Notes under the pieces: model-generated | Databases searched by the model: none | Told to the model about the DNA's origin: nothing | Seen by the model: the letters and a program-made list of their open reading frames with translations, nothing else | Program-made: the position numbers and the translations under genes | In this document: positions 21,701 to 64,000 of the stretch, one piece after another | How the letters are laid out: every line of letters begins with the position of its first letter | Position numbering within the stretch: the stretch's first letter is position 1 | Origin: an uncultured virus (IMG/VR IMGVR_UViG_3300042691_022988) | Taxonomy: Duplodnaviria; Heunggongvirae; Uroviricota; Caudoviricetes | IMG/VR virus record: IMGVR_UViG_3300042691_022988 | Strand: one strand, 5' to 3' | DNA length: 64,000 nucleotides

Positions 21701-22982
21701 CAAATATTCCCATAGTACCAATCGCATTTCCACCAACAACAGCAGCTCTTGCAACAAATGGTAGGTCAGACATTCTCGCTCCTTGTGGGAGTGGAGCGGC
21801 TAAATCTACATCTAAGACACTCTTAGCGCCGGAAATAGAATCGTAAAACTCATCGCTCCAATCGTAATCTTTATCACCCATCAAGTCTCCCATGACTTTT
21901 GGAAACTGATACATATTTAAGATGCCATCCATGGCAGCATCCCCTACCGCTGTAAAAAACGCTTTTGTCTTACCCTCCCCTGCCTGTATTTCTTCAAATG
22001 CCTTTCTCTTGTTTTCTTCACTTTGCATTTCCTGGCCGGCTATTTTACCATACTGCAAGTTGTTTTGATCATATGTAGCGGAAATACCTTTAAGTGAGTT
22101 TGAGATTTTCTCGTACTCCTTATACATATAATCTAACTTGCTTCGGTCAGATGGGGTGACGGCTGTTTTTTCAAGATTATCAATATTTGAACCTAGTAAC
22201 TGTAAACGCTCATAATTAGCGTCGTAAACTTTATTAATAGCTTCAGTTTCTACTTGTCTTAAAAAACTTTCATCAACAGCGGTCCTATCTTCTTTTGACT
22301 TAGCTTTTAGTACCTTGTACTTCTCATTAGTATAAGTGCCTTTTTCAGGGTCAATTTGCTGTAAGTAGTTTAGATAGTCAGCCGTAATGTCAGAAGCGTA
22401 CTCCTTGGATTCAAAATACGTAGGCATTTCGAACACTTCTTTTGATGCAACCTCTCTGTAAAAATCTTTATCAGCCTTTTGTTTGTTTTCTCTTTCGGCT
22501 ATTTTTTGAGGGGTAGCCATTGAAATGGATTCTCTTTTTCTCATTTCAACCGGGCTAACTGCTGGTTTTACAGCTGTTACATCTTGTGGCTCAGTTACAT
22601 CTACTTCAAAGTATTTCGATGGAACTGTTTTTTTCTTTTCCTGAACAGGCTCTTTATCTTGTTGTGAGGTCTTAAATGGAACCTGAGTAGATGAATTGAT
22701 TATTTTTTCAGTTACCTTCTGGCCAAAACTCGGCGCAGAAGGCTTTCCAGGCTGCTGAACAGGCTGTCCTGAGCCTTGCGTAGTACCCCCTTTTTTTTTT
22801 GAAGGATCAAAATACGCCGAATGAAACGCCGTGGCATCCAAATTGGTTAACTTGTTGTCAACCATAAATTTATGGATTTCAGCAGATTTCTTTGGGTCCG
22901 AATACGCTTTAACGAAAGAAGCCTCATCCATTTGGGTGAGGTTATTTTCTTTCATGAATTTATAAATTGGGTTACTGTCCAT
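15708..22982 (-). CDS. large polyvalent (probably ejected) protein: GNAT, zincin HExxH, glycosylase-like, ART-like and SAM-lyase-like domains
   Basis: LAVAPEFSRKGVAT; FHEGIH..EETVVE; GWY..GPKLGMFYANL..TLDRWW; FFHVS..YYT; IGLY..SYDL..GQESLFDL. Confidence 0.75.
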   Translation of the reverse strand: MDSNPIYKFMKENNLTQMDEASFVKAYSDPKKSAEIHKFMVDNKLTNLDATAFHSAYFDPSKKKGGTTQGSGQPVQQPGKPSAPSFGQKVTEKIINSSTQVPFKTSQQDKEPVQEKKKTVPSKYFEVDVTEPQDVTAVKPAVSPVEMRKRESISMATPQKIAERENKQKADKDFYREVASKEVFEMPTYFESKEYASDITADYLNYLQQIDPEKGTYTNEKYKVLKAKSKEDRTAVDESFLRQVETEAINKVYDANYERLQLLGSNIDNLEKTAVTPSDRSKLDYMYKEYEKISNSLKGISATYDQNNLQYGKIAGQEMQSEENKRKAFEEIQAGEGKTKAFFTAVGDAAMDGILNMYQFPKVMGDLMGDKDYDWSDEFYDSISGAKSVLDVDLAAPLPQGARMSDLPFVARAAVVGGNAIGTMGIFALGGATGGATKLGQRAATYATAFLTQESNYYQEALEGGMSPQDAAITGTYLAAQMALFETIMPDIGYLNAVGFKKGVVSGTMQAMKSGLPAKEAAKLAFKNAISALPENALTLGSNIVKSGGKEFFAEELPQNLAEDTAKEIINNRSQKTYFNDTFNVDNYVDAAIGSFIAAGSISGASSMFSKATPKSPVQEEVMRQIVENRDKFFAQGTDADRKVSPEGKKEVEDAGEILDAMKAHSGWNQMSKEEQDHAFALAQQADVMKKEQERMKELRIPDERKDAEIKRLEDEVNEMFSIQLEQEKQKAKDAKLKAIEDDFNKSMEGEEFPVQEDERDQEIVELQKQREEKGVSELDTFLSDMKPMVPFAVERTEQGLPVAQSVKQAASNYLYKKYKELTDMKSDPNRMMTRGQIASVQKQLEQDIRTLEGTAETKTEARDQENIQGIPSQVREGQEPIQAQPVEVPSAEAPEAGGVLQAQEEVTPTEKIKSNWNYEGEGDAFASNKESREGKSSYVTRILDTIGVGKSYNRAKQRGELDVESPLTYKGDKESISAIDGNGNKVGVIELQSDGGVQHLAVAPEFSRKGVATELIKQIEQKGAKVRFEKSKRISPDAAKLFNKLQSLKDQETAPEVTPEVTVEPVVKPSRRERLAKMFETSEGEIAAEKVASFLGEANIGVEVLDPKSFEEKGKQRNFEGSADGIFLVDNNTGKIYLNKERIKGAEGKTIAFHEGIHPVVNIIRNTNPKLYRAIVDGLKAEAVKNAGVAEAAEAVASSGYYQEQGPSAIEEETVVETMARVAAGDIDIDTFEPSFREKFIEFMNKLAKMLGLKPIAVNSPRMEVKRLADQLSKALNKGGKISDVVGKENVGEFQNKVGAQKRAVSIAKGKESLVKYGLKKGVNTTRKIGEALEKRSRELYGIISREDRSEKALKAISSFMADEVRFFVEAFGENSGKGWYGEKFQKGLDAMAAIFPEMKDDQNARDLFTMLVAITSDGTEVMQNFQQASLAYKNYKETGKMPTTAKAQRAESYMVNFRNIQDLLDKYNGDVQAIKKELLTIESISELNQQRKAQGLEKLDTKWPASFKVPLAASIFGPKLGMFYANLSGMEQYPTLDRWWSRTFNRYRGTLIPQITRGYNKKGEALGIDRYREIAGLKDASEEEVLARIVQDHDTYEDKGYKKGTPAEKAANTLYKKLYVELNDAPFGAKDRQFMYDAFIDTQKKLKRSGIDVTIADIQAILWYFEKNLYKKLGVTKPIQGISYEDAANKTYEKWKNSGNSFNYTIKDSEQGETIDEVDIDEETVPTVQPSKGIKRGNNLVKDTYYESGLTEDKNDYIFFHVSSAPEASIRKGIDSTKYTSLRTAREEKGLQYGVASYYTRPEDGERMVGGEKYAVRVPKAKVYPIDSDPLGYGEKAEAKIPQGTPFRGEAVKREIADMAKKNGYEMIVGEWSYSRTGKPAGELPEFRADALVPLKPTKEKPESFTSNAEKGMERIPFPSQQSEQAKQELESIASEVRDIMSSKKKFSSKEYQLADSVYMSGQVTENKYEDNEFKRDITPEEYDMMTKVLPKSMQADAARVRGLLFGKKGQASIGIPRGVKQFSDNVSGTVDRIKAATSEDGATLNLDGSTYEDGGLVVPAGSINVAQDDVSAEGLFEFLKDNEGNISSDIFKIGLYKFPDRPEVSYDLNIVIPREYRDVALKFGELAGQESLFDLDTFENIKTGSDGKNPRKFTAQELAEIAKDLSEGRLPKIVSKQGQPSMVKRNALDKRIDEAIDRKKYFVANDMGGVDVYTPENYIKVLQEFVDTGAISGKAAPYTQLTERQFPLEYINGISLLRLTDNDRSFVQDEIDYVKSKMAKGQPSMVKRTSAEVQRLMEDSMDSVDEAIADGVDAQTAVEDNITSQDWYSELTPKQKEQFDEIIKDEFGVTPKAPVAKPTGIKATIANIIDNYYKGDRESKAANTQILESDPKLKYIYRNIEEINKQLQNAGVITDKTDGCP

Positions 22983-25317: not shown

Positions 25318-28300
25318 TTATGATAAAACACCCTTAATTCCAACTGATACAAGTATTGAACTAGTATTATTGATTGAAGGATCGTATTCGAGGGTATGAG
25401 TCAAAGCATTTGCCCTAATGTCTTGACCATTGCATAGCGCTATCTCACTTAAATACCAATTCCCAAGATCGCCATTAGTGCTAGGCTCTTGATCTTGTAA
25501 AGTGATTAAAGTCCAGTCGTTTACAACATCATATACAGCTGAAGTCACTAATCCCGTAAAAATGTTTCCGTCAATTTGAATAATGGTGACCAACTCATTT
25601 AACAACAATGATTGATCAAAATCAAATATCCATCCGTTAACTGGCTGAGCTGGTGGTAGATAAAAAGATGATGATATGTTGTTGTTGTTAAAGAATTTAG
25701 GATCATATAAGTTTTTTCTATAATTCACCTTACCATATCCTTCATAAGTGCTAATCAAATTTGCTGGCATAGTTGTTTTCATACCAAGCGGGTAACTTCT
25801 GTTCGGTTCAGATTTAGCCTCAACAGAAAATAAATCATCAGACACTAACGTGATATCTTGGTAACGCTTCAACATTAACGGATTGTCATTAGACACGAAA
25901 GAAACCTTCTGAACAAACGATTGGCCGTGAAAGTTCCATTGATTAGGCTGATTATGGAGATACAATTGATTATCAATACCCCATCCGACTAGAGTCTGGC
26001 CAAGATTGCAGTATTGCTGAAAATTGTAATCATAAGTTGATCTCCACCTCATGTTTACATAGTCAAACACAACATGATCGTAAGACAATCCGCTCGTGGT
26101 ATAATAATATCCAGGTTGTAAATAGTCAATTACGTCTGGCTCAACCCCGTCGAGCGCTATAATAGTACTATTTGACAGCGGTTGATATTCAACAAAATTT
26201 ACTGTTCCAGAATAAACATTGCCGCTCTCAACAAAATAAATAACCATGTCATACCCATACAGGTATTCAAAGTTACCCCCAAACAATATAAAACCTTCAA
26301 TCAACTGTCCAACCGCAGGATTAAATATTCCTTGAGCCTCTCCAGTGTATGGCACATCAAACCTAAAAGCAAAACCAACCTCACCAACAGATTCGTTTAC
26401 GTATGTCCGAACCATTGGAGCTGGGCTTGCGTTGTATGCTGCTGCTAGGGCCTTTGTCTTTGTTCTAAATTTGTAATCCGCCTTTGTGTCCGGGTCTATT
26501 TCACTTACTTGTATCTGACCATTAGCGCCAGAATAAACAAATACCCCAGCATTGTTGTCAAAATACATTGTTGCACCATTTGGAAGGATTGCGGTAGCCC
26601 CTGGATTCACGCATCCCAAAAGACTCTTGTAGTCAAACCAAGAAGCAAAAGTTCTATTGGATACACGAACTGTTGAATCGGATCCAACTTCATTTGGATA
26701 GTATTGAATGTAAATTGAATTTTCTTTTTTGGGCTGAAGACATTTCAATGTTTTACCTTCCCGACCCGACATATAAGCTCTAACAACGGGTCCAAATATC
26801 GGATTCATGTCTTCAATGTTTTGATTATCCAAAGCAAATGAAGACAAGCCGTTTATCTGTGTACCTACAATAAACGAATCAGAATGAATAGCAGTAGCTT
26901 GACGATGAGTCATTTTAGCATTAGTATCCTCAATTCTTATTCTACCAGTATTGTGTATATTACTAAGCCAATAGTCAGAATAATGCGGATCTTCCATAAA
27001 ATAATAAGCCTGCTCATTACTCGCACCAAGCCCAGTATTCCAATTTCTTTTCCTTACATAAACATCACCATAGTTTATTTGGAATGTTGCTGGAGTAAGA
27101 GAAACTAAAGCAGAGACATTTTGCTGTTCATTTGTTTGACCTGGCGCAGCAAATGGATCGGTATCTAATGTTACATAAGCCATATTTACATTGGATGCAA
27201 TTCCAAGCGTAATCCTCGTTATGTTTAAATCTTGATCATAAAAAGTAGATGTAATACTAGTCCCAACAGACGATGTGGTTCCGTCAAGATTGTATATAGT
27301 TATATCATAGGTGTTTCCGTTTAGAAATGAATAGTCACCTCCGATGTAATAAAAAGGAGCCGCCACGTAAAGATAATACAATGGTGGCGCTCCATGAGAT
27401 CTGTTTTCTGTATGTGGATCTATGATGTCTATTGATGAAGTTACATCATTCCATGTTGATAGAAATATATTCCCAGTATCGTCTACAGAAGGACGAGGTG
27501 TATAAATCTCGACCATTGAACCAAATACAAAACCACTAGTAGATGGGGGATCAGGCTCTACAAGACTAATATCAAATAGATTAGTGTAGACTGCAACTCT
27601 TCCATCTGTTCCGCTAGTGTCAACATCTACAATATCGATTTCTAAATAAGGAAGATAAACAGCACCAGTTCCAAAAAGTCCCTGTCTAACAAACCTCAAC
27701 TTATCACCAACTCTAATTTCATGTTTTATCGTAGCCCCAAGATTTTTATTCTCATAATAATTATCAATATATATTATGTATCTATTATTGGTTACGCTAT
27801 CTAGTTTTATTGATTGAACATATCCGGCTCCTGATCCGTCTTGTTTGTTGTTAGATATATATTGACCAAAACTCAATATTTCTGTAGCGGGTTTAGCTAC
27901 AATCCAATATTTTGTAGCCCAAACAGGAGGGATGTGGTCAATAGTAATTCTTGGAGTAACTGTGTATGGATTTCTATCGTCAGCAAAACTTGCTCTTGCT
28001 GGTTCATCATAGAACCAAGGAACAAAAAGATTCAATGAATCAATAGTATAAACAGTACTATCTCTATAAGCTCTGTCGCCATAAACAATTCCAAATTCGT
28101 GTGTTGCTCCCGTTTTTAAACTAGGAACAGCGTCCGTAGACCTATCCCAAATGCCCTCGTCATTATTTCCAACCCACCCACTTGGACCGGGACCACCACT
28201 ATCTGGAGCCTCATATTGCATACCAGCTAAGCCAAGTGGTGTAACAGTACCCCCTGTAGTATATATAGTTGGCGCAAGTTGAGTTGATAAAGAATCGCCT

Positions 28301-29676
28301 ATTAAGGTTAATATATATGCATTTTGATCAAATGTAGTTGGTTGAAGCAAAGCAGTATCAATATCGTTTTGAGATATAGTATAGTATAAAAATATATTTC
28401 TATACTGAACAGGGGAAAGCACATTTGGGCTGGTAATGTATACAATCATTCCCGCCTCAAAAACAAAAACATTATTTACATCTATACTTGGCGTGTTAAA
28501 GCTATTAAAATTAACAATGAATGTGCCTAATCCACCAACCAATATATTGGTCGATTGATAAAGCGCCCATGGCCTCCATACTAATTCTTCCACAGAATAA
28601 GTCATTGTTGCATCAACAAGAAATGGGGCTTCAGTCGGCTTATCATAGCCCTCTCTAAAATTAACATATGTCAACTGATTTGTTGGGAGATATTCTTGAC
28701 AATCTGCCACAATAGGTAATCGATCATAATTTTTTGCAAAATCTATAGCTGGTGATGTAGCTACGTCTCCATAGTAATTAATTTCATAAGGAACACCATC
28801 AGCTATATTATCTAAATTTTTATCAAGCTGTAAAAAAACTCCGTATGGAGGAATTGCTCCAATTAATTCTCTATCATATTGCTGAATAGCTATATTAAAC
28901 TTCCTTATTATGCTTGGGCCAGTATTGAATTGTATCCTTATCCCATTGTCATTATTTAAGAAAACCCAATTTGTTCCGGATACTAATTCAGATTTATAAG
29001 GCAGACTTAATTCTGAATACATAGACCAAACACCCTGTTCACCATTTTCATAAACAGGTTGAATAATAAACCTAAAAAGTTTATTTCTGAGTTTATTGTC
29101 ATTCCTTGTAGGATCAGTAAAATATGACACTACTAGAGGGTCCATTGGCCATTTTACCGCGTCTATTGTTTGAAGATCAAATATTGGGTAATCACCATCA
29201 AGAGCTTTCCTGAGATTGATTTGGTATGGGGGATTAAAGAGTCTAGTTCCATCATCCTCATACATCAATGGATCCCATCGCCCATCAGTCCACTTCAGAA
29301 TATCATCAATTACATTGGCATGAAATATCGGCCAATCACGGCTAAAATTAAGCTCAGCACTTTGTACCGCAACGGTGTGAGTTTGATTAGTGATATCATA
29401 AACCCATATCTCATGAATGCCATTTGCTTTAAAGACAAAATAAACAATTGAGTTTTCTTTCTGCCAAGAAGCAGCACCAATTATTTGGTCTTGAATTTCT
29501 ATAAGTGGATTTGGAATAACCAGTGTGCCATTAGATGTCTCAACTGCGTAAGCATTCCCAGAGTTATACCCCAAACGACAATATGAAAAATCTCGGTAAT
29601 CGCCCTTGGGCATACTCTGCGGAGTATCGTCAGTGTTTATGCCGCCTTCAAAAGTTATGATGTCTTCAAATTGCAT
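25318..29676 (-). CDS. tail stabilisation/nozzle protein (crAss-like, P22 gp10-like)
   Basis: N-terminal TFEGGINTDDTP..MPKGDYRD; WTDG and NQLTYVNFREGYD motifs; size and position. Confidence 0.8.
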   Translation of the reverse strand: MQFEDIITFEGGINTDDTPQSMPKGDYRDFSYCRLGYNSGNAYAVETSNGTLVIPNPLIEIQDQIIGAASWQKENSIVYFVFKANGIHEIWVYDITNQTHTVAVQSAELNFSRDWPIFHANVIDDILKWTDGRWDPLMYEDDGTRLFNPPYQINLRKALDGDYPIFDLQTIDAVKWPMDPLVVSYFTDPTRNDNKLRNKLFRFIIQPVYENGEQGVWSMYSELSLPYKSELVSGTNWVFLNNDNGIRIQFNTGPSIIRKFNIAIQQYDRELIGAIPPYGVFLQLDKNLDNIADGVPYEINYYGDVATSPAIDFAKNYDRLPIVADCQEYLPTNQLTYVNFREGYDKPTEAPFLVDATMTYSVEELVWRPWALYQSTNILVGGLGTFIVNFNSFNTPSIDVNNVFVFEAGMIVYITSPNVLSPVQYRNIFLYYTISQNDIDTALLQPTTFDQNAYILTLIGDSLSTQLAPTIYTTGGTVTPLGLAGMQYEAPDSGGPGPSGWVGNNDEGIWDRSTDAVPSLKTGATHEFGIVYGDRAYRDSTVYTIDSLNLFVPWFYDEPARASFADDRNPYTVTPRITIDHIPPVWATKYWIVAKPATEILSFGQYISNNKQDGSGAGYVQSIKLDSVTNNRYIIYIDNYYENKNLGATIKHEIRVGDKLRFVRQGLFGTGAVYLPYLEIDIVDVDTSGTDGRVAVYTNLFDISLVEPDPPSTSGFVFGSMVEIYTPRPSVDDTGNIFLSTWNDVTSSIDIIDPHTENRSHGAPPLYYLYVAAPFYYIGGDYSFLNGNTYDITIYNLDGTTSSVGTSITSTFYDQDLNITRITLGIASNVNMAYVTLDTDPFAAPGQTNEQQNVSALVSLTPATFQINYGDVYVRKRNWNTGLGASNEQAYYFMEDPHYSDYWLSNIHNTGRIRIEDTNAKMTHRQATAIHSDSFIVGTQINGLSSFALDNQNIEDMNPIFGPVVRAYMSGREGKTLKCLQPKKENSIYIQYYPNEVGSDSTVRVSNRTFASWFDYKSLLGCVNPGATAILPNGATMYFDNNAGVFVYSGANGQIQVSEIDPDTKADYKFRTKTKALAAAYNASPAPMVRTYVNESVGEVGFAFRFDVPYTGEAQGIFNPAVGQLIEGFILFGGNFEYLYGYDMVIYFVESGNVYSGTVNFVEYQPLSNSTIIALDGVEPDVIDYLQPGYYYTTSGLSYDHVVFDYVNMRWRSTYDYNFQQYCNLGQTLVGWGIDNQLYLHNQPNQWNFHGQSFVQKVSFVSNDNPLMLKRYQDITLVSDDLFSVEAKSEPNRSYPLGMKTTMPANLISTYEGYGKVNYRKNLYDPKFFNNNNISSSFYLPPAQPVNGWIFDFDQSLLLNELVTIIQIDGNIFTGLVTSAVYDVVNDWTLITLQDQEPSTNGDLGNWYLSEIALCNGQDIRANALTHTLEYDPSINNTSSILVSVGIKGVLS

Positions 29677-55961: not shown

Positions 55962-56285
55962 TTAGAATTTTGATCTCGTTGATGGCGAATGCTTCTCCTT
56001 CTCCTTGCGACGGAACTCCTCCATCTCCTCCTTACGCTTGGCTACCTGCTTAGGCGTTAAAACCTTATTCTTCTCGCCGGTAGAAGCAGACGAAGTCTTT
56101 ACAGTATAACCCTTCGAACCAGCACCAGATCCGCCACCCCCAGTGTCATATGCAGCGCACCCATCCTTACTACAACTCATACTGACCTCCTGGTCCTTAG
56201 CGTCCTTCTTCTTTTTCTTCTTCAAGAACTGACTCACATAACTGGCGCCAAACATATTGTCGCGATAATCTTGAGATGCTTCCAT
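55962..56285 (-). CDS. basic low-complexity protein, first gene of operon
   Basis: start MEASQ, 15 nt downstream of TATATTTG (56300-56307). Confidence 0.6.
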   Translation of the reverse strand: MEASQDYRDNMFGASYVSQFLKKKKKKDAKDQEVSMSCSKDGCAAYDTGGGGSGAGSKGYTVKTSSASTGEKNKVLTPKQVAKRKEEMEEFRRKEKEKHSPSTRSKF

Positions 56286-56451
56286 GGAGCTTTTTTTTAC
56301 AAATATACACGGATGCACATAATAATCAAAAAAAATCATAATACCAGGATGGTTGGGAAAATCGTTGACCAACTAGGGTTGGGGTCACCCCCCCCGGCAG
56401 GCGGTTACGCGACCCGACCCGAAGTCGATTTGGCAACAGGGGTGGGGTACT

Positions 56452-56636
56452 TAACACCCTGATTTGCAGCCTGTTATGCCACCAAGGCCAACTGCTTGAC
56501 CCTCAGGTAGATATAGCACACAGCACACAGCCCGATGCGCGGCAACTTGTCTCCGCTCGGTGGAGAAAGTAGACTAACCCATTGATAATCAACCCGTTTG
56601 CATAAACGTCACAACGTGTTAAGTATCAGCACGTTA
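56452..56636. repeat. four 25-bp imperfect palindromes YAAC-N4-TGA-N3-TCA-N4-GTTA
   Basis: copies start at 56452, 56489, 56575 and 56612. Confidence 0.7.
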
Positions 56637-57170
56637 CACCATGCATGACCATGCCCGCTAGATACTGCAAGCACCCCGCCCGATGCCCTAGAAACCACAC
56701 GGCCTGAACGCCTGAAAACCCCGCCATTCCTGAGAACCATGCAAGGCTCGGAAATTCTGCTTGGGGTAACCTAGATTGAGTTGGCCTAATGTGCGGGCGT
56801 GCACGAGTGCTTTATGTGCTCTCTCTCCTGTCTCTTGGTGTGTGTGTGTTATTACATAGGGTGGATTGTGGGTTATTTGCCCGCGCATGGCCTGTCCTTT
56901 GCCTGCTGTTTGGCTGTCCTGTTTTACCCTGTCTGATGTCTCCTGATTGCTCACCTGTAGACCGCTTCCCAGGACGCATACGCTTTTTGTTGATTTTCGC
57001 TCTCAAACCCGCGCTGTGCCTGTCCTAGAGAACATCTGATGCTGTTTTTGGGTTTTGGCCTGTTTCTACCCCTGTTCACCCCCTCCCCTAGCTGTGAGAA
57101 ACGCCCATTTCTGACTATTTCCCGCCGGCCTGAATCCCTTGTCCTACGCGGCTTTCAGCACCATTGCTTA

Positions 57171-57178
57171 CAAAGATA
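57171..57178 (-). promoter_or_regulatory. -7 promoter element TATCTTTG (leftward)
   Basis: consensus match; no convincing ORF downstream. Confidence 0.4.
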
Positions 57179-57411
57179 GTCAATGTTTTCGCGGCTTCCA
57201 AGAAATAACGTAAAAAAGATTAAAATTCGTCGATGATAAATTATAATTCGTCGACACTTTTTGTCAGTTAGGCGAATTTATTGCCTTTGGCTGTAATTCA
57301 GTTATTGGATAGACGTGGCGCGGGTTTCAAAAAAGCAAATCTCTGAACACCGCATAAACACAGGTCGTTTAGAAGGTCTTTAAAACTTGATTTAGAACTT
57401 AGATATCCCCT

Positions 57412-57419
57412 TATCTTTG
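57412..57419 (+). promoter_or_regulatory. early promoter -7 element TATCTTTG
   Basis: consensus match, with TTG ~22 nt upstream, at the head of the plus-strand early region. Confidence 0.7.
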
Positions 57420-57424
57420 CCACC

Positions 57425-57810
57425 GTTCAACGGAACAACGGAGTGCTCAAATCACCCGCAATAGTAATACCTCGTGAGACGTGTGAAATTGAAAGATAGC
57501 TAGCAGTTCTGATTCCCTCTCTGCAACAATCAAAAGAGGGTGAGCGCTTAGGCAACGAAGCGACGGGAGTTCGCCCGCAAATAGCCGACAACATTCGGCA
57601 ACCTGTCAGTAGCAAGGTTAGGAGCTACAGGTTAAACGAACGAGAACCCTGCAAATAGCAGGGGACTACAAAAGCCGAGTCTTGGGACTATACGCGGTGA
57701 CCCCTAACGGGAGAGCGGATGAGTACAGCGGTAAACAAGTAGCACAGCTATGCGTATGTGACAACGTATGGCTGTGTGTATCAATACTACAGCGCAACGG
57801 CGCAAATTCA
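57425..57810 (+). ncRNA. large structured RNA, unclassified
   Basis: at least 8 hairpins in ~390 nt; no plus-strand ORF of 60 aa or more; G-U pairs favour the plus strand. Confidence 0.6.
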
Positions 57811-57820
57811 ATACAACTAT

Positions 57821-57898
57821 AGCAACGACGCATGGTGCGGCAAGCCTAGATGACTGAGGTCGCTAGTCTCGCAGGGGGTTCGAGTCCCCCCGTTGTTC
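57821..57898 (+). ncRNA. tRNA-like element without a canonical anticodon arm
   Basis: acceptor AGCAACG/CGTTGTT; T-arm GGGGG-TTCGAGT-CCCCC; mini D-arm CGCA-TGG-TGCG. Confidence 0.7.
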
Positions 57899-57919
57899 TA
57901 ACACTTAAAACACAACATC

Positions 57920-58399
57920 ATGAACATGACAAAAGGCACAGCCTTCGAAGTTGAAATCTTCAAGCAAATGAACTTATCACAGGAAGTAATTGAGCAGCAC
58001 ATATACGACTATGCGCCAATCATGAAACTGATACCGCTCACAACTGATGAAATCAGGGAACAGGGTAGAGACTACAACCCTAGAGAATGGGACAGGGTCA
58101 TTGACAGGATGCTCAACTACAACGGTATCAAGTGGTTCAAACGTGACAGGAACGAGAGTTCAAACGGCTACGATGAGTACTTCGCGGTATTCAGCAACAG
58201 CGCAGGCGTCAAGGTAATCAATCACGTGTCATACAGCGCGTCCATGACCAACACTCCGTGGGTCGAGGTTGCTATCGACGAGGACAACATCCTGCACTAC
58301 AACCGCCGCTCAATTCGCTTCAAGCGCAACGACGAGGCTAGGGACTACCTAGCAGAGCAAAGCAAGACAAGCGGTCGCATCTACACGACAATCTTCTGA
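57920..58399 (+). CDS. early hypothetical protein
   Basis: 159-aa ORF with A/C-rich leader. Confidence 0.7.
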   Translation: MNMTKGTAFEVEIFKQMNLSQEVIEQHIYDYAPIMKLIPLTTDEIREQGRDYNPREWDRVIDRMLNYNGIKWFKRDRNESSNGYDEYFAVFSNSAGVKVINHVSYSASMTNTPWVEVAIDEDNILHYNRRSIRFKRNDEARDYLAEQSKTSGRIYTTIF

Positions 58400-58451
58400 G
58401 GTTAACTGATGAGACTTCAATAGTCGAAACTGCCTACGGGCAGTCTTAACC
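58400..58451 (+). ncRNA. type I hammerhead ribozyme
   Basis: GGTTAA-CTGATGA-GACT(tcaat)AGTC-GAAA-CTGCC(tacg)GGCAG-TC-TTAACC. Confidence 0.92.
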
Positions 58452-58460
58452 AATAGCAAT

Positions 58461-58622
58461 ATGAAAGCAATCCAATCCCTCGCATCATTCGCAATGGTGC
58501 TGTTCTTTTTCCTGAGCACGATAGTCGCGCCAATGGCCGGCATTTGGTTCTTACTGCCGCTGACTATCCTGTGCCTGAACCTGAGCCTGAACCTATTCGT
58601 TCAAATTCATAATTCCAAGTAA
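58461..58622 (+). CDS. 53-aa hydrophobic membrane protein
   Basis: hand-translated MKAIQSLASFAMVLFFFLS... Confidence 0.55.
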   Translation: MKAIQSLASFAMVLFFFLSTIVAPMAGIWFLLPLTILCLNLSLNLFVQIHNSK

Positions 58623-58623
58623 C

Positions 58624-58815
58624 ATGACTGAGAAATTCTACTTCCGCAAACTAGGCGGTTGGCCGTTCGAAATGGAGGCCACAATCAACGATGGCCGCCA
58701 CCGAGCAAACTTCCTAGCGGCCATGAAGCGCAAGCGTTTCATACAGGTCGACGAGGCCGAGTACATCAAGGACAGCAGACTGCGCTCGATGTACGCATCA
58801 ATGTTCCACAAGTAA
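58624..58815 (+). CDS. early hypothetical protein
   Basis: ORF in operon. Confidence 0.6.
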   Translation: MTEKFYFRKLGGWPFEMEATINDGRHRANFLAAMKRKRFIQVDEAEYIKDSRLRSMYASMFHK

Positions 58816-58834
58816 TCAATAAACAGTAATCGAT

Positions 58835-59161
58835 ATGACAACACAAGAATTCATTCAGCAAATGGGCAAGATGCCTGTTGCAAACTACAACGACGGCACA
58901 ATTCACTTCGAGAATGGCCTCGAAATCAGCCACAGCGTTAAGCTAGCAGAATGGCAAGGCGACTTGCCTCTGCAAATGGTCGTGCGGGTATCTTTCCAAG
59001 GCGACTACGTTATGACGTGGGGCGCTGAGACTGACGAAGACAATCGACAGCTAGTGTATATGTGGCGCACGTTGAAAAGCCGCGCACAGGAGCGTTCAAA
59101 GGACATACAGCAGTACAACTCCCGTACAGGTTACGAACTGCTCATGAAGGGGCTGCAATAG
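58835..59161 (+). CDS. early hypothetical protein
   Basis: ORF in operon. Confidence 0.65.
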   Translation: MTTQEFIQQMGKMPVANYNDGTIHFENGLEISHSVKLAEWQGDLPLQMVVRVSFQGDYVMTWGAETDEDNRQLVYMWRTLKSRAQERSKDIQQYNSRTGYELLMKGLQ

Positions 59162-59219
59162 GTAAACTGATGAGGCTTCAATAGCCGAAACCACGGGGCT
59201 TGCCCCTGTGGTCTTTACC
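59161..59219 (+). ncRNA. type I hammerhead ribozyme
   Basis: GGTAAA-CTGATGA-GGCT(tcaat)AGCC-GAAA-CCACGGGG(cttg)CCCCTGTGG-TC-TTTACC. Confidence 0.92.
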
Positions 59220-59231
59220 AATACTAACGAT

Positions 59232-59516
59232 ATGAAAGCAACAATCGAAATCACGTCGACCTACGGGTTCGACCACTATTGGACACTAGTGTGTTCAACA
59301 CCTAAGACAACCAAGAGTTTCTACCTAGGACAGGACTGCAAATTCTGCGAACGAATACTAGGTATGAATACTGCGTGGGTTGCCCGCGAGATTGGCACGA
59401 ACAGGCTCGACACCGAGGCAGGCCGCGAGAAACTAGCCAAGTACATCTGCTCTACGCTAGGCATCAACGGACGTACAATGAAACAATATCAATCATGGTC
59501 GCTCTGCGCCCAATAA
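59232..59516 (+). CDS. early hypothetical protein
   Basis: start MKATIEIT downstream of the hammerhead. Confidence 0.65.
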   Translation: MKATIEITSTYGFDHYWTLVCSTPKTTKSFYLGQDCKFCERILGMNTAWVAREIGTNRLDTEAGREKLAKYICSTLGINGRTMKQYQSWSLCAQ

Positions 59517-59528
59517 ACCAACAACACC

Positions 59529-61127
59529 ATGTTACACAACGAGCATCTAAGCAAGGCGGATGAACTATACGAGGTTCGCCACGACAACAACGGCAACGCT
59601 ATCCATGTATTCATCAAGGACGGCGAGGCAATCATCTTTCAGAACCTGCATGACTTTGTCATGAGAATCTATTACGGCAAAGAGGTCGAGCGATTCTACC
59701 TCAGCGAAGAGGAACTGACCGATATGTACAATAGCAACGATTACGAGTATTACGAACTAAAATCAAAATACAGCCATGAGTAACATTGAAAGATTCGCAC
59801 GCATATGCAGTGCAACCAACGAGGGCATGAATGAGGGCTTCCTGTTCGAAGAGAGCCTCATGTACTTCATCGAGAAGGACGATGCCGAACGCTACGCCAT
59901 CGAGATTGGCTACGCTGACCTTGACGAGGCATACGACGACGATGCCTACTGCTACACGGAGTGGGATTGGGAAGACGAGGGTGAGTGGTACGAGAAGCAC
60001 GACGGAGTATGGTACGAATGTACCAACGACAGCAAGGTCGAAGTTAACATGAACAGCAACCTATTTTGGAAACAATAACATGAAGACAAAGCAAATCGTC
60101 GACGCGTACGTTAACGCTATCAACTCCGGAATTTGGGACTATCCCAATGGCCACGAGTTCAACAGCCCTGCTGAAATCTACAAGCTAGTGTGCGAGGGTA
60201 AAACAATCTACCACTTCGGACGCGAGGCCGTGATACACTACGGCTCGATGACGGGTGCGCTGATGGCATTCGGTGGCATCGGGTACACTTCGCAGTCAAC
60301 TCGCAAGGCAATTAGAACAGCAGTATTGTATGCTCAGAAAGTAAGTCAAACCAATAACAACTAAGCAATATGGACAACATCAAAATCACAGCAGACGGCT
60401 TCGTGTGGCTCATCGTCACGGACGTAGCAGAGAAACTTTACTACAGCAATGCCATGCAGGTTTACCGCCTGTACGATGACGGCACAGAGGCTCTCATCCT
60501 TGACTTCAGAGAACTGCAAGATGCACTAGCAGCAGGCAACGACATCGGGGTCGAGATTGCCCCGTTATGGAAACTTGTAGATTCACATCATTATCAAGCA
60601 CTAAACAAATACAATCAATGACAACACAACAGCAACACATCATCAACTCGCTTGTAGCTGAGTTCGAACGAATCAACAATCCAAGACCAAATGGCTTCGC
60701 TCGTATAGGCGAGGCACTTGACAAGTGTGACGAATGGTCAACACTATTCGCGCAGGTTACAGCATCCAATGCCCGATATACATACCTCCGCGAGCAGATG
60801 ATTGAAACCGATTACAATCGACTTGTCGAAGAGTGTAGACTCGCTGGCCTTAATCTTCGCATTACCACAAACGATGACTACATCTATATTGATATGCAAG
60901 GCACATATCAGACTGACCATGCGATTAAAATCCACTATTGGTTTGATACGAAAATGCACATGAGTGCCGCACGACAATCAATTAACGAAGTCAAGTCAAT
61001 ACGCCTTCATTCGTATCAAGCCACATCGAATTTCAGCGACAGCTTCGCGTCCATCGATAGCTTGTTTCTACATGAAACATTCTTCCGCAATTGGACTAAG
61101 CTAATTGAACTCTCACGCAATAATTAA
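59529..61127 (+). CDS. five early hypothetical genes (59529-59783, 59776-60078, 60080-60364, 60370-60621, 60618-61127)
   Basis: tightly packed co-oriented ORFs with A/C-rich leaders. Confidence 0.65.
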
Positions 61128-61302
61128 ACACAACACACAACAACGCAAATGAAACACTTCAGTATATACCGAAACATCCCTTTCTTAGACTGCAAGGGAT
61201 TAGGCTTCCATTACCAACGAATAGGCAACAGGTATTGGATAGACGTACCATTCATAAGTATCACATTTAAAATTATAAATAACAAATAAACACAACAACG
61301 AA

Positions 61303-61533
61303 ATGAAAATCTTATTCTTCGCGGCCATGATGGTCGCACAGCACTGCGCGGACACGCGCTTCAAAGAAATGCAAGACGACGGCACAATCGTGTACGAAGG
61401 GGAGGACGAGGACACAGGCAGAGCGATGTTCACTATCATTCTTCCTGACACGACCATCCACTACGCTTACGAGGCCGAGGTCAAGCAGTTCATCAAAACC
61501 GGAAATTTCACCTATAACGACCAATTACAATGA
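61303..61533 (+). CDS. small secreted or lipoprotein-like protein
   Basis: MKILFFAAMMVAQHC signal-like start. Confidence 0.55.
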   Translation: MKILFFAAMMVAQHCADTRFKEMQDDGTIVYEGEDEDTGRAMFTIILPDTTIHYAYEAEVKQFIKTGNFTYNDQLQ

Positions 61534-61715
61534 AGCACACACTTCGAATTGAGCCACTCCTTTGGCTCGCCTACATCGCTGCAATCATTACAGCAGCCGT
61601 ACTCATGAGTTCATGCAGTACCTCACGTCGAAACAACTACCAAGACCATCTCCGATCGACCCCGACTGAAAACTGGGTGCGCCACGATAATGGTGGATGT
61701 GGTTGGCACAACTAA
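61530..61715 (+). CDS. small lipoprotein
   Basis: hydrophobic segment ending in lipobox-like LMSSC. Confidence 0.6.
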   Translation: MKHTLRIEPLLWLAYIAAIITAAVLMSSCSTSRRNNYQDHLRSTPTENWVRHDNGGCGWHN

Positions 61716-61759
61716 CATGGCTATGGAGCAAGCAGGGGTTCGAGTCCCCTGCCATGTTC
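61714..61759 (+). ncRNA. tRNA-like acceptor/T-arm minihelix
   Basis: AACATGGC/GCCATGTT stem; AGGGG-TTCGAGT-CCCCT T-arm; 12-nt linker containing TGG. Confidence 0.65.
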
Positions 61760-61790
61760 TCTGCTCACAGCAGGCTCGTAATGCAACGAG

Positions 61791-61827
61791 AGGAGGGGAG
61801 CGGCAACGGCTGCACCCTCCTTATTTT
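61791..61827 (+). terminator. probable terminator
   Basis: AGGAGGG...CCCTCCT then TATTTT; new TACTTTTG element at 61863. Confidence 0.5.
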
Positions 61828-61892
61828 AACATCTCTTAACAAGTGTAATTTAAACTTTAATATACTTTTGTACCACTTAAAACAACAGCAAC

Positions 61893-62147
61893 ATGACGCA
61901 AGAGCAAATCAAACGCAGGCTTTTATTCATCATCGATGACGCGAGCCGTTTACTTCACCACCTAGAGTCAGGCAAGGACATGAGCGAATTCACGGGCTTT
62001 GCTGACGATGGGTATACACACCTGTCAAACATCCAAATCGCAGCAGACCTAGAGGACACGGAGTCTGACGTGTGGAAGAACGTACACTCCATGGATGCAG
62101 AAACCTTAGAACTTGTAACACTTAATTTTTCAAAAAGCAAAATATGA
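61893..62147 (+). CDS. early hypothetical protein
   Basis: ORF after the promoter element. Confidence 0.6.
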   Translation: MTQEQIKRRLLFIIDDASRLLHHLESGKDMSEFTGFADDGYTHLSNIQIAADLEDTESDVWKNVHSMDAETLELVTLNFSKSKI

Positions 62148-62623
62148 ACTTAGCACAATTTACAACGCAGATTGCGACCACGGGTGGCGCAACCTACAAC
62201 ATCGTAACAGGCGACAGCCCAACATCAGGCTACGCCGCATCAATGCAGGGACACGAGAAAGTCATCAAACTTCCTGATACATGGGATTCCATGTCGGGCA
62301 GCGACCGAGGGATGTACATCAAGCAGCACGTCCTTGACTTCATCGTAACCAACGGGACTCAGCTAGAGACCTCATGGGACTACATTGGAGCATGGACTCA
62401 TGAAGGCAACATCTACCTCGATGTGACCCGCGTGTTCAATGAACTCTACGATGCTGTCTTATTCGGCATCCTAAACAATCAGAAGGCCATCTACGATTTC
62501 AACCGAGATGAGTCAATCGAATTGCCCGAAGGTCAGACTCACGGCACAATGACTCAGGCCATGGACTACGCTAAGATGACAGCAACAGCAATCTCACATA
62601 AAATCCTTACAACAAATGAATAA
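62144..62623 (+). CDS. SAM lyase-like protein (T3 SAMase-like, putative)
   Basis: GGAT..GY..E; IGAW..IYLDV..A..G..NQKAIYDF pattern. Confidence 0.6.
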   Translation: MNLAQFTTQIATTGGATYNIVTGDSPTSGYAASMQGHEKVIKLPDTWDSMSGSDRGMYIKQHVLDFIVTNGTQLETSWDYIGAWTHEGNIYLDVTRVFNELYDAVLFGILNNQKAIYDFNRDESIELPEGQTHGTMTQAMDYAKMTATAISHKILTTNE

Positions 62624-63977
62624 CTCAAGCTACCACAACTTTAGCTTCGGCACGTTCGCCAAGCAAGTATCAAAGGATGCACCCCACTCGAAGGTTACGC
62701 TTCGGGTGGAGGCCGACAACGATGACGGATTCGTCAGCGTGTATGCATACGACCAATTCGGAGACTACCTCAATGCCTTCTCCTACATGGACAGGTTCGA
62801 GGTTGATGACGACATGAACCAAGCAATCGAAGAGTATCAACTAGACATCGAAACAACTAAGTAATATGAGCAACAATAAAGCAATTGCACACGTGCAAAA
62901 CCAAATCATGCTTTCATGGAAAGCCGTGATGAACTATGAGCAACAACTCCGCGACATCGGCCATGATGAAATCATCGAAGCCTGCATCGAGAATGAGAAG
63001 GAGAAGGTGTACATCTACACGACCATTCTCAATCAGCTAGAGACCTCAGTCAACCAAGCCAAGGCCATCCTCAAGGACGCTGGCTACTACGTTGACAACC
63101 TGTGGCACATCGATGACGTGAAGGGTCTGAAGGACATGAATGATGACGATGCATACGCCATCCTTGACACAATCCTGTCGGGCGACTACATCATAGAAGA
63201 TATCGCAAATTCAATTAACCAAGCAACTCAAACGCTATGACACACTACGCAAACTACGACGCATGGAAGTTGTCCAATCCCGATGACGATGGACACTACA
63301 CCGAGGATACCAAGGCTCGCATTGAAGAGCCAATCTATTTCAAGTACCAAATGAAATGGAACAGGAGACACCTTTACGGCATGATTACTACCTCAGGATA
63401 CGACATCAAGATATGGAATATCGGACGCATCAGGACGATAGACATTGACGAAATCGAAACCTATGTCGAGGACGTGTACAGCGAGATTGATAGAATCAAA
63501 TCTAACTACGAGAACTTCGAGTACATTTCTATGCAGGAGTTCTACGCAGAGTTCGAGCAGGTTCATAGCAAAACTCTAAAGATTGTACAAGATGCGACGA
63601 ATAATTGATTACATCGCATTCACACTGATGATGTGGTTCTTAAAAGACATTGACAAATGATATTAGACTATCGCACAGGTGACGACATCGTTGCCATTCG
63701 AGACCACTCTCAGGGTGTGTTCCTCAAGGGAGATGTGTTCACAGCTATTGCCATGCAAAGGAACAGCTGTGGATGCATCATCCTTGTGGATATAGGTTTG
63801 AATTCTGACAGGCCATTTACCATGTGCCCTGTATGCGAGATGAAGGATGAGAAGACCGACAAAATATGGTGGGTCGATGCCCGATCATTCCGGAGATTGC
63901 TTTCCCGATCGGAAGAGGCAGACCTCGCAGAAGTTCTAGAACAAGTGTTATCAGAGCCACTAATTAACACTAATTAA
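62616..63977 (+). CDS. four hypothetical genes (62616-62864, 62866-63240, 63237-63608, 63657-63977)
   Basis: coupled co-oriented ORFs; NYDAWKLSNP and CxC/CxxC motifs. Confidence 0.65.
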
Positions 63978-64000
63978 TGAGAGATTAGTTGAGAATCTAG

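What the first reader, a model, noticed from the sequence alone, without database searches (positions are those of the whole stretch)
58400..58451. Type I hammerhead ribozyme 1 between stop codon and next gene
Complete core is present: CUGAUGA, GAAA, GUC triplet. Stem I is GGTTAA/TTAACC, stem II GACT/AGTC, stem III CTGCC/GGCAG with a UACG loop. It starts right after the TGA at 58397-58399. Cleavage after C58445 would leave a 15-nt leader on a 53-aa membrane-protein gene. Phage hammerheads are known, but their roles are largely unresolved.
Basis: partly seen in the sequence, partly recalled or inferred. Interest (0 to 1): 0.75.

Follow-up and report, generated by a model that had tools for sequence, protein, structure and literature searches.

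The report
Two hammerhead ribozymes between phage genes
The window holds two textbook self-cutting hammerhead RNA motifs wedged between small early genes of a phage that probably infects Flavobacteria-type hosts; this arrangement has been known in phages since 2011, so it is a solid but fairly ordinary find.

Summary
Window 58400-58451 (+) is a complete type I hammerhead: all core positions, three helices, GUC site, cut after C58445, 15 nt before the ATG of a hydrophobic 53-aa ORF. A second copy lies at 59161-59219 (+), with compensatory changes in stems I and II and a different stem III. These are the only two in the window (own descriptor; own covariance model, HH2 61 bits, next best 10.8 bits). 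The same core plus loop II occurs in 119 IMG/VR stretches; 84 of 86 testable ones form full hammerheads with strong covariation, a 6-bp stem I flanked by A on both sides, an upstream stop codon abutting or overlapping the motif, and a median 25-nt leader to the next ATG. A cultured Flavobacterium phage (Elemovirus) carries one, unannotated. Rfam gathering thresholds miss all of them (best: RAGATH-1 hammerhead, 27-31 bits against 56.3). Most likely they cut the early polycistronic mRNA between cistrons. In relatives, unrelated genes are swapped on either side of a conserved hammerhead, so they sit at mosaic junctions. Clustered phage hammerheads flanking single genes were described by Perreault et al. 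2011. Verdict: new member of a known kind. Cleavage is untested.

The parts
57920..58399 (+). Upstream ORF (159 aa, no family match); its TGA at 58397-58399 abuts stem I of HH1
58400..58451 (+). Hammerhead 1, type I: stem I 58400-58405/58446-58451; core 58406-58412; stem II with loop 58413-58425; GAA 58426-58428; stem III 58429-58444; C17 = 58445; predicted cut between 58445 and 58446
   Evidence: (74.7 bits, but this sequence was in the model's seed)
58446..58460 (+). 15-nt leader left on the downstream RNA after cleavage; A/U-rich, no Shine-Dalgarno, essentially unstructured (-0.7 kcal/mol with the first 30 nt of the ORF)
58461..58622 (+). 53-aa hydrophobic ORF directly downstream of HH1
58624..58815 (+). 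63-aa ORF, second gene of the block between the two hammerheads
58835..59161 (+). 108-aa ORF; the last base of its TAG (59159-59161) is the first base of HH2 stem I; 48% identical homologue in relative G003 is also followed by an HH2-type hammerhead
59161..59219 (+). Hammerhead 2, type I: stem I 59161-59166/59214-59219; core 59167-59173; stem II with loop 59174-59186; GAA 59187-59189; 9-bp stem III 59190-59212; C17 = 59213; predicted cut between 59213 and 59214
   Evidence: RF03152, 31.1 bits; 61.3 bits, E 2.8e-17, not in the seed
59214..59231 (+). 18-nt leader left after HH2 cleavage, no Shine-Dalgarno
59232..59516 (+). 94-aa ORF directly downstream of HH2 (no family match; unrelated to the gene downstream of the G003 hammerhead)

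Best explanation
Both elements are genuine cis-cleaving type I hammerhead ribozymes. They are transcribed as part of a rightward polycistronic RNA of small early-type genes of a tailed phage whose nearest cultured relatives infect Flavobacteriia. Each folds as it leaves the polymerase and cuts after C17 (58445, 59213). The upstream RNA keeps its stop codon plus about 46-53 nt of compact ribozyme, ending in a 2',3'-cyclic phosphate. The downstream RNA starts with a 5'-OH on a short, unstructured, Shine-Dalgarno-free leader (15 and 18 nt). The 6-bp stem I is short enough for the products to part. The operon is thereby cut into units (..159-aa gene | 53+63+108-aa genes | 94-aa gene..) whose ends do not depend on their neighbours. 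The ribozyme thus works as a portable gene junction that tolerates having unrelated genes swapped in on either side. Shown here: the motif, its covariation, its fixed placement between stop and start, and its position at mosaic junctions. Inferred: cleavage itself (about 0.8), cleavage in vivo during infection (about 0.7), and that the benefit lies in defined RNA ends for stability or translation (about 0.5).
For: Core and helices are complete in both copies. Between the two copies, stems I and II differ by compensatory changes and stem III is wholly different yet still paired. The family: a 23-specified-base pattern (core, stem II, loop II) gives 119 IMG/VR stretches. Of 86 distinct hits with enough flank, 84 have a full stem I, stem III and U-H, none of which was in the search pattern. 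On 26 gap-free 52-nt members, 99.5% of cells pair against 69.5% in shuffles. Twelve of 16 pairs change on both sides. The covariation score is 0.768 against 0.153 in shuffles and at most 0.095 with slid partners. Placement: 95 of 104 family members have an upstream frame of at least 45 codons ending at -49 to +38, and 69 of those 95 end at 0, +1, +4, +6 or +10 relative to stem I. An ATG-ORF of at least 30 codons follows in 113 of 115 members, with a median leader of 25 nt; 87 of 113 leaders are 18-34 nt. Clustering: 18 of 85 loci carry 2-5 copies, always on one strand, 249-1418 nt apart. Mosaic junctions: G002 has the order tRNA-like element, an unrelated 126-aa gene, then the hammerhead. G003 has a 48%-identical homologue of the 108-aa gene, then an HH2-like hammerhead, then an unrelated gene. 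Contigs of related phages lose likeness exactly at 58399/58400. Host frame: TerL relatives are all phages of Flavobacteriia. Operon leaders lack Shine-Dalgarno. A cultured Elemovirus has the same hammerhead between gp67 and gp69. Literature: three tandem prophage arrangements cleaved in vitro, and the processing idea was stated (PMC3088659, passages).
Against: No cleavage assay or RNA-end data exist for this sequence. The four runs that hold it are labelled RNA-Seq but are probably DNA and are kept only as contigs, so they say nothing on expression or ends. Rfam's curated thresholds are not reached. The fold with flanks leaves the start codon unpaired even when uncut, so cleavage is not needed to unmask it; the gain from cutting is inferred, not shown. 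In relative G003 the homologue of the 53-aa gene has no hammerhead and is ATGA-coupled to another gene, so HH1 is not required for that gene as such. The 26 rows of the covariation count were picked by a descriptor that demands pairing, which inflates 'cells paired'; the 84-of-86 figure is the less biased one.
Confidence: 0.72

Rival explanations
1. The hammerheads are kept mainly as portable recombination junctions. A conserved stretch of about 30 nt, shared by many gene boundaries and many phages, gives homology for shuffling gene cassettes, and it supplies stop codons in two reading frames. RNA cleavage would then be secondary or merely tolerated.
For: Either flank is replaced by unrelated genes in relatives while the hammerhead stays. 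Related-phage contigs diverge exactly at the motif's edges at 58399/58400, 58430 and 59191. The G002 hammerhead combines stems I and II of HH2 with stem III of HH1. The core UGA serves as the upstream stop in 13 of 95 cases.
Against: Recombination homology would not demand compensatory changes in stems I and III, an invariant catalytic core, or U-H at the cut site. Gene boundaries in phage early regions are mosaic anyway. This reading is compatible with the best explanation rather than exclusive of it.
Confidence: 0.12
2. The two same-strand hammerheads excise a 768-nt RNA (58446-59213) carrying three small ORFs. Its 5'-OH and 2',3'-cyclic phosphate ends are then joined, by the ribozyme or by a host RtcB-type ligase, into a circular RNA.
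For: The two copies share orientation. Their stems I would cross-pair at 5 of 6 positions. The end chemistry fits RtcB (recalled knowledge, not from a call).
Against: Perreault 2011 looked for circular or spliced products of tandem prophage hammerheads and found none (stated as data not shown). Relatives G002, G003 and the Elemovirus each have a single match to the model, so the pair is not conserved. No ligase gene was seen among the ORFs scanned.
Confidence: 0.04
3. Cleavage is conditional. Because the upstream stop codon abuts or overlaps stem I, a terminating ribosome unfolds the ribozyme. The cut would then report on, or be gated by, translation of the upstream gene, or by ionic conditions.
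For: Stops end at 0, +1, +4, +6 or +10 in 69 of 95 family members, and at 0 and +1 in the window. Perreault 2011 raises regulated cleavage for phage hammerheads.
Against: Tight packing is usual in phage genomes. A conserved A at -1 followed by G at +1 makes overlapping stops easy to arise. No ligand-binding or switch element is visible, and the MFE fold is the active fold.
Confidence: 0.08
4. The motifs are not catalytically active in vivo. They would act only as stable hairpin clusters, for example as 3' stabilisers or protein-binding sites, or they would be decaying relics.
For: No activity data exist. Stem I is short and open, and no classical loop I-loop II contact can be drawn. Rfam models score them low.
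Against: All conserved core positions are intact in both copies, and the core is near-invariant across the family (CTGATGA in 101 of 110, C17 in 102 of 110). Loop II and the A/A flanks of stem I are conserved together (81 of 81), as expected for a tertiary contact that supports catalysis. Relics would not keep covariation.
Confidence: 0.04

Closest known systems
Clustered hammerheads of prophages and phages (Perreault et al. 2011, PLoS Comput Biol, PMC3088659; passages read)
   Same: Canonical-core hammerheads occur in phage DNA, several in a row on one strand, flanking single genes or short gene blocks of varying identity. Processing of long phage transcripts into gene-length mRNAs was proposed. 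Anti-restriction genes sit nearby (ardA there; an ArdC-N protein downstream of one family member here).
   Different: This is a distinct subfamily: type I with a strictly 6-bp open stem I flanked by A/A, and a conserved 13-nt stem II with loop. The string of that loop was not found in the 11 supplementary files of the paper held as text (aligned PDFs may hide it). The setting is lytic-looking Flavobacteriia-type phages rather than prophages: 119 IMG/VR stretches against 3 in 185,579 prokaryote genomes.
HHphage of haloviruses HF1/HF2 (discussed in PMC3088659)
   Same: A hammerhead lies a few nt (13) upstream of the start codon of the first gene of an early polycistronic transcript, and a mapped 5' end lies within 3 nt of the cut site.
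   Different: That one is a core variant tuned to very high salt, in an archaeal virus. Here the core is canonical and the host is probably bacterial.
Rfam RF03152 RAGATH-1 hammerhead
   Same: It is the best-scoring Rfam family for both copies. It shares the core, the start of stem II, a long stem III and GUC.
   Different: Scores are 26.9/23.0 and 31.1 bits against a gathering score of 56.3. The model's stem II region is 4 nt shorter, and its 5' hairpin (model positions 1-25) is absent for HH1. What RAGATH-1 is beyond its Rfam name was not read in any paper here.
Type I hammerheads of dsRNA/ssRNA viruses upstream of ORFs (de la Pena group, NAR 2026, PMC13725137; passages read)
   Same: Type I with a long helix III, filling a small intergenic region, with the cut site a few nt (7) before the next start codon. 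They are proposed to serve translation of the downstream ORF.
   Different: Those are eukaryotic RNA viruses with cap-independent initiation. That paper set DNA-phage hits aside as already described.
RiboJ-type synthetic ribozyme insulators (recalled, not from a call)
   Same: A self-cleaving hammerhead placed before a coding sequence gives it a fixed 5' end regardless of what lies upstream.
   Different: Those are engineered parts. A natural insulating role here is an inference.

Membership tests
Hammerhead ribozyme (class) | Conserved core C3 U4 G5 A6 N7 G8 A9, G12 A13 A14, A15.1-U16.1, H17 (criteria as listed in PMC3088659) | tested here: met
   All positions are present in both copies with N7 = U and H17 = C; G10.1-C11.1 closes stem II.
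Hammerhead ribozyme (class) | Three helices around the core, supported by covariation | tested here: met
   The MFE fold is the hammerhead fold. Twelve of 16 pairs have changes on both sides in 26 family members. Of 86 pattern hits, 84 form stems I and III.
Hammerhead ribozyme (class) | Site-specific self-cleavage giving 2',3'-cyclic phosphate and 5'-OH | not testable with these tools
   No assay was possible, and the only runs holding the sequence are contigs, probably DNA.
Hammerhead ribozyme (class) | Tertiary contact between helices I and II for activity at low Mg2+ | tested here: inconclusive
   No loop I exists. However, A at -1 and A at +1 flank the 6-bp stem I in 105 of 110 members each, and all 81 members with the canonical loop II have them; members with GNRA-type stem II have other flanks. 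This is suggestive only, because relatedness is not controlled.
Type I topology | Helix I open; helices II and III closed by loops | tested here: met
Rfam hammerhead families (RF03152; clan CL00010, including RF00008) | Score at or above the family's gathering threshold | tested here: not met
   There were 0 gathering hits in 64 kb. RF03152 scored 26.9 and 31.1 bits against 56.3. RF00008 scored 19.1 against 48.5. Within the clan only the best overlapping hit is shown, so the score for Hammerhead_1 is not known.
Clustered phage hammerhead arrangement (Perreault 2011) | Two or more same-strand hammerheads flanking a gene or short gene block in phage DNA | tested here: met
   Two copies lie 761 nt apart around three ORFs. 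The phage identity rests on portal, TerL and primase-helicase matches.

The most novel reading that the evidence does not exclude
In phages of Shine-Dalgarno-less (Bacteroidota-type) hosts, early operons are 'punctuated' by interchangeable self-contained RNA junctions. These are hammerheads and, in this same operon, tRNA-like acceptor/T-arm elements that host RNase P/Z would cut. Each sits 15-30 nt before a start codon. They give every cistron a standard short leader and a protected upstream 3' end. They also bring their own stop codons, which lets unrelated genes be swapped in and out freely. The ribozyme would then be a natural, evolvable 'gene connector', and its function would be testable in a cultured Flavobacterium phage.
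Probability: 0.2. Interest if true: 0.6.

Novelty: new member of a known kind. Interest (0 to 1): 0.33.

Why it matters
What phage hammerheads are for has been open since 2011. This case adds no new principle, but it sharpens the question in five ways. (1) It defines a large, clean subfamily that standard Rfam annotation misses. (2) It fixes the geometry: stop codon touching or inside the ribozyme, then a 15-34-nt leader to the next ATG without Shine-Dalgarno. (3) It shows the ribozyme staying put while unrelated genes are exchanged on either side. (4) It finds tRNA-like elements at equivalent positions in the same operon. (5) It points to a cultured phage-host pair (Flavobacterium phage vB_FspP_elemoA_7-9A on Flavobacterium sp. 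BAL314) in which a core-dead mutant and RNA-end mapping could test the function directly.

Tried and rejected
- Rfam at gathering thresholds over the whole window gave nothing.
- The looser motif CTGANGA..GAAA is at chance level (6 found, 5.98 expected) and was dropped as evidence.
- blastn of 57800-59600 against 50,697 phage records gave no match. The window's own assembly is not held. Its nearest record, G001, is the same phage but stops at window 57515, so it is uninformative on the hammerheads.
- RNA evidence: no RNA holder is listed. The four runs come from one study, are labelled RNA-Seq but are probably DNA, and are kept as contigs only. There is no information on expression, RNA ends or cleavage.
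- Earlier findings of this scan: none near this place.
- Start-codon unmasking by cleavage was rejected, because the AUG is unpaired in the uncut fold too.
- A Watson-Crick pseudoknot between loop II and the flanks was looked for by eye, and no complement was seen.
- A terminator role for stem III was rejected, because no U-run follows it.
- A consistent downstream gene family was sought and not found: 13 of 105 downstream proteins have any Pfam hit (DUF6876 x4, DUF932 x3, DUF6874, DUF7178, DUF6011, ArdC-N with zincin, and two sub-threshold hits). The rest are small orphans.
- A virion RNA polymerase among the giant ORFs was not found by Pfam.
- Literature linking hammerheads to Flavobacterium or Cellulophaga phages was not found: 33 papers held at least 2 of the 4 search terms, and none of the 10 listed contains 'hammerhead'. 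A further search returned only an unrelated review.
- tRNA-like elements were sought in the other hammerhead loci and were present only in the window's close relatives G002 and G003.

Full report
**What is there**

Window 58400-58451 (+) reads as a complete type I hammerhead.
- Stem I is 6 bp (GGTTAA with TTAACC).
- The core CUGAUGA is followed by a 4-bp stem II with a 5-nt loop, then GAA.
- Stem III starts with the A15.1-U16.1 pair and continues CUGCC/GGCAG, closed by a UACG loop.
- C17 is at 58445.

The TGA of ORF 57920-58399 ends one base before stem I. The ATG of a 53-aa ORF is at 58461.

The 52 nt fold into exactly this shape as the minimum-free-energy structure (-16 kcal/mol, z -3.4). 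They do so also when embedded in 121 nt of context. The 53-aa product is hydrophobic nearly throughout and matches no family.

**A second copy, and no more**

The pattern CTGATGA N6-36 CGAAAC occurs twice in the window against 0.06 expected. The second site, 59161-59219 (+), is again a full type I hammerhead.
- Stem I differs by a compensatory pair (GGTAAA/TTTACC).
- Stem II differs by a compensatory pair (GGCU/AGCC).
- Stem III is unrelated in sequence and is 9 bp long.
- C17 is at 59213, and the leader to ATG 59232 is 18 nt.
- The first base of its stem I is the last base of the TAG of ORF 58835-59161.

My own descriptor (core, three stems, U-H) finds exactly these two sites on both strands. 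A covariance model built from family members scores them 74.7 bits and 61.3 bits; HH1 was in the model's seed, HH2 was not. The next best hit in the window scores 10.8 bits. The looser CTGANGA..GAAA pattern is at chance level.

**Known-family scans**

- Rfam at gathering thresholds reports nothing in the 64 kb.
- In E-value mode the best family is RAGATH-1 hammerhead (RF03152). HH1 scores 26.9 bits in a 181-nt search and 23.0 bits in an 8-kb search. HH2 scores 31.1 bits. The gathering score is 56.3.
- Hammerhead_3 gives 19.1 bits in a permuted alignment.
- Overlapping hits within a clan are suppressed, so I cannot state the score for Hammerhead_1.

By the class definition the elements are hammerheads. 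By Rfam's curated cut-offs they would not be annotated.

**The family**

The exact core, stem II and loop II pattern (23 specified bases) occurs in 119 stretches of IMG/VR viral contigs. It occurs in only 3 of the genomes of 185,579 prokaryote species: two MAG contigs and one Mucilaginibacter.

Pairing and covariation:
- Stems I and III were not part of the pattern. Even so, 84 of 86 distinct hits with enough flank form a full hammerhead, and the two misses are near-misses.
- On 26 gap-free 52-nt members, 99.5% of cells pair (shuffles 69.5%). Twelve of 16 pairs change on both sides. The covariation score is 0.768, against 0.153 for shuffles and at most 0.095 for slid partners.
- Caveat: those 26 rows passed a descriptor that requires pairing.

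Family regularities (3 artefactual calls longer than 110 nt were dropped first):
- Stem I is 6 bp.
- A precedes stem I in 105 of 110 members, and A follows it in 105 of 110.
- The core is CTGATGA in 101 of 110, and C17 is C in 102 of 110.
- All 81 members with the canonical loop II have the A|G..C|A frame. Members with GNRA-like stem II have other frames.

I read the A/A flanks plus loop II as the likely helix I-helix II tertiary contact. This is inference.

**Placement**

- Of 104 members with at least 150 nt upstream, 95 have a frame of at least 45 codons ending at -49 to +38 from the first base of stem I.
- Of those 95, 69 end at 0, +1, +4, +6 or +10. The last position is the UGA of the core itself (13 cases).
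- An ATG-ORF of at least 30 codons follows within 200 nt in 113 of 115 members. The median leader is 25 nt, and 87 of the 113 leaders are 18-34 nt.
- Downstream genes are small (median about 73 aa).
- Thirteen of 105 downstream proteins have any Pfam hit: DUF6876 x4, DUF932 x3, DUF6874, DUF7178, DUF6011, an ArdC-N anti-restriction/zincin protein, and two sub-threshold hits.
- Eighteen of 85 loci carry 2-5 hammerheads, always on one strand, 249-1418 nt apart.

The window's pair, 761 nt apart around three ORFs, is typical.

**The phage and its host**

The window encodes a portal, a large terminase, a virion protein, a primase-helicase and a replication initiator.
- The terminase's only relatives among 50,697 phage records are phages of Flavobacterium (68), Cellulophaga (15), Tenacibaculum (2) and Maribacter (1), plus one uncultured record, at about 24-26% identity.
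- Leaders in the hammerhead operon are A/C-rich and lack Shine-Dalgarno.
- A Bacteroidota-type promoter motif (recalled consensus) occurs 7 times against 2.8 expected, at intergenic sites elsewhere in the window.
- Nine records of cultured Flavobacterium phages (Elemovirus) hold the hammerhead's 5' half. In NC_055852.1 the model scores 50.8 bits (E 9e-15) for a full hammerhead between gp67 and gp69. That hammerhead lies under an antisense 35-aa 'hypothetical protein', gp68, which is probably spurious.

**Mosaic junctions**

- G001 is the same phage but ends before the hammerheads.
- In relative G002 the order is tRNA-like element, then a 126-aa gene unrelated to the window's 159-aa gene, then a hammerhead whose core UGA is that gene's stop. 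This hammerhead combines stems I and II of HH2 with stem III of HH1.
- In the complete relative G003, a 48%-identical homologue of the 108-aa gene is followed by an HH2-type hammerhead and then by an unrelated gene.
- Also in G003, the homologue of the 53-aa gene has no hammerhead and overlaps its upstream gene by ATGA.
- Contigs of related phages in four runs of one aquatic study lose likeness exactly at 58399/58400, with several different upstream sequences, and inside the motif at 58430 and 59191. This is contig evidence and only a weak hint.

The hammerhead therefore stays while either neighbour is exchanged.

**Mechanism**

Most likely each element cuts the nascent polycistronic RNA after C17.
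- The upstream piece keeps its stop codon and ends in the folded ribozyme with a cyclic phosphate.
- The downstream piece begins with a 5'-OH on a short unstructured leader (folds of -0.7 and -3.5 kcal/mol).
- Cutting is not needed to expose the AUG. The gain must therefore lie in end-dependent stability or initiation, or in making each cistron independent of its neighbour. This is an inference that fits the mosaic data and the engineered use of ribozyme insulators (recalled).

Rivals considered are a recombination-junction role, excision and circularisation of the 768-nt segment, translation-gated cleavage, and inactivity. They are weighed in their own sections of the report.

**What is known**

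- Perreault et al. 2011 (passages read) reported multiple hammerheads flanking individual genes or short blocks in prophages. They showed cleavage of three tandem arrangements in vitro and proposed processing of long phage transcripts. They also noted a halovirus hammerhead 13 nt before a start codon with a matching mapped 5' end.
- A 2019 review repeats the processing idea and calls the function unresolved.
- A 2026 paper on RNA viruses sets DNA-phage hammerheads aside as already described, and proposes a translation role for type I hammerheads next to start codons.
- I found no paper tying hammerheads to Flavobacteriia phages.
- The loop II string is absent from the text-held supplements of the 2011 paper, though aligned PDFs may hide it.

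Verdict: real, well supported, a new member (and a well-defined subfamily) of a known kind, with catalysis untested.

**In passing**

The same operon carries two conserved tRNA-like elements (57824-57897 and 61715-61757). Their acceptor-stem pairs covary between the window, G002 and G003. The first lies 22 nt before the start codon at 57920. They may be host-RNase processing sites that play the same role as the hammerheads.

Noticed in passing
window 57824-57897 (+): A 74-nt tRNA-like element: a 7-bp acceptor-like stem (one G-U), an internal arm and a perfect T-arm (5 bp with a TTCGAGT loop). It ends 22 nt before ATG 57920. ARAGORN makes no call; Rfam gives only 16.4 bits to mascRNA and a T-arm fragment of tmRNA. 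G002 and G003 keep it (G003 also has a short minihelix form), with compensatory acceptor-stem changes. It is possibly an RNase P/Z processing site.
   Followed up: partly
window 61715-61757 (+): An acceptor plus T-arm 'minihelix' lacking the D and anticodon arms. The Rfam tRNA model scores it 24.1 bits (gathering 29, E 0.0028) and mascRNA 22.4 bits. The acceptor stem covaries in G002 (a different 7-bp stem). It is followed by further conserved hairpins and a weak RT-9 RNA hit at 61793-61893 (26.8 bits against 46.1). It overlaps the nominal ORF 61697-61939, which may therefore not be a gene.
   Followed up: partly
L120 3962-4069 (NC_055852.1 17275-17382), Flavobacterium phage vB_FspP_elemoA_7-9A: The annotated 35-aa 'hypothetical protein' gp68 lies antisense across an unannotated hammerhead (50.8 bits) in the gap between gp67 and gp69. 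It is probably a spurious gene call.
   Followed up: partly
L126 2667-2752 (G002) and the family loci: The upstream ORF can end inside the ribozyme. The UGA of the catalytic core serves as the stop codon in 13 of 95 cases, a TAA within stem I in 14, and the UAG of loop II in 1. The conserved part of the motif carries stops in two of three frames.
   Followed up: yes
window 56000-64000 compared with the rest: The rightward small-ORF region has higher G+C (0.46-0.49 against about 0.39-0.45 elsewhere). It also carries almost none of the Bacteroidota-type promoter motifs found at other intergenic sites (11137, 11407, 49862, 51653, 56300). It may be read by a different polymerase or as one long transcript.
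   Followed up: no
window 15708-22982 (-), 11524-15210 (-), 5477-10351 (-), 25318-29676 (-): Four giant ORFs (2424, 1228, 1624 and 1452 aa). The 2424-aa one has a GNAT acetyltransferase domain at about residues 980-1045. The 1228-aa one matches a DarB-like antirestriction PHROG. These are possibly injected virion proteins.
   Followed up: no
window 58452-58472 and 59220-59243: Both hammerheads are followed by AATA.., and both downstream genes begin with the same ten bases (ATGAAAGCAA, i.e. Met-Lys-Ala). This could be a shared leader/start module or chance.
   Followed up: no
L019, L048, L059 (IMG/VR loci): Some viral contigs carry 4-5 hammerheads within 3 kb, one per gene junction, mixing the canonical loop II with variants.
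   Followed up: partly
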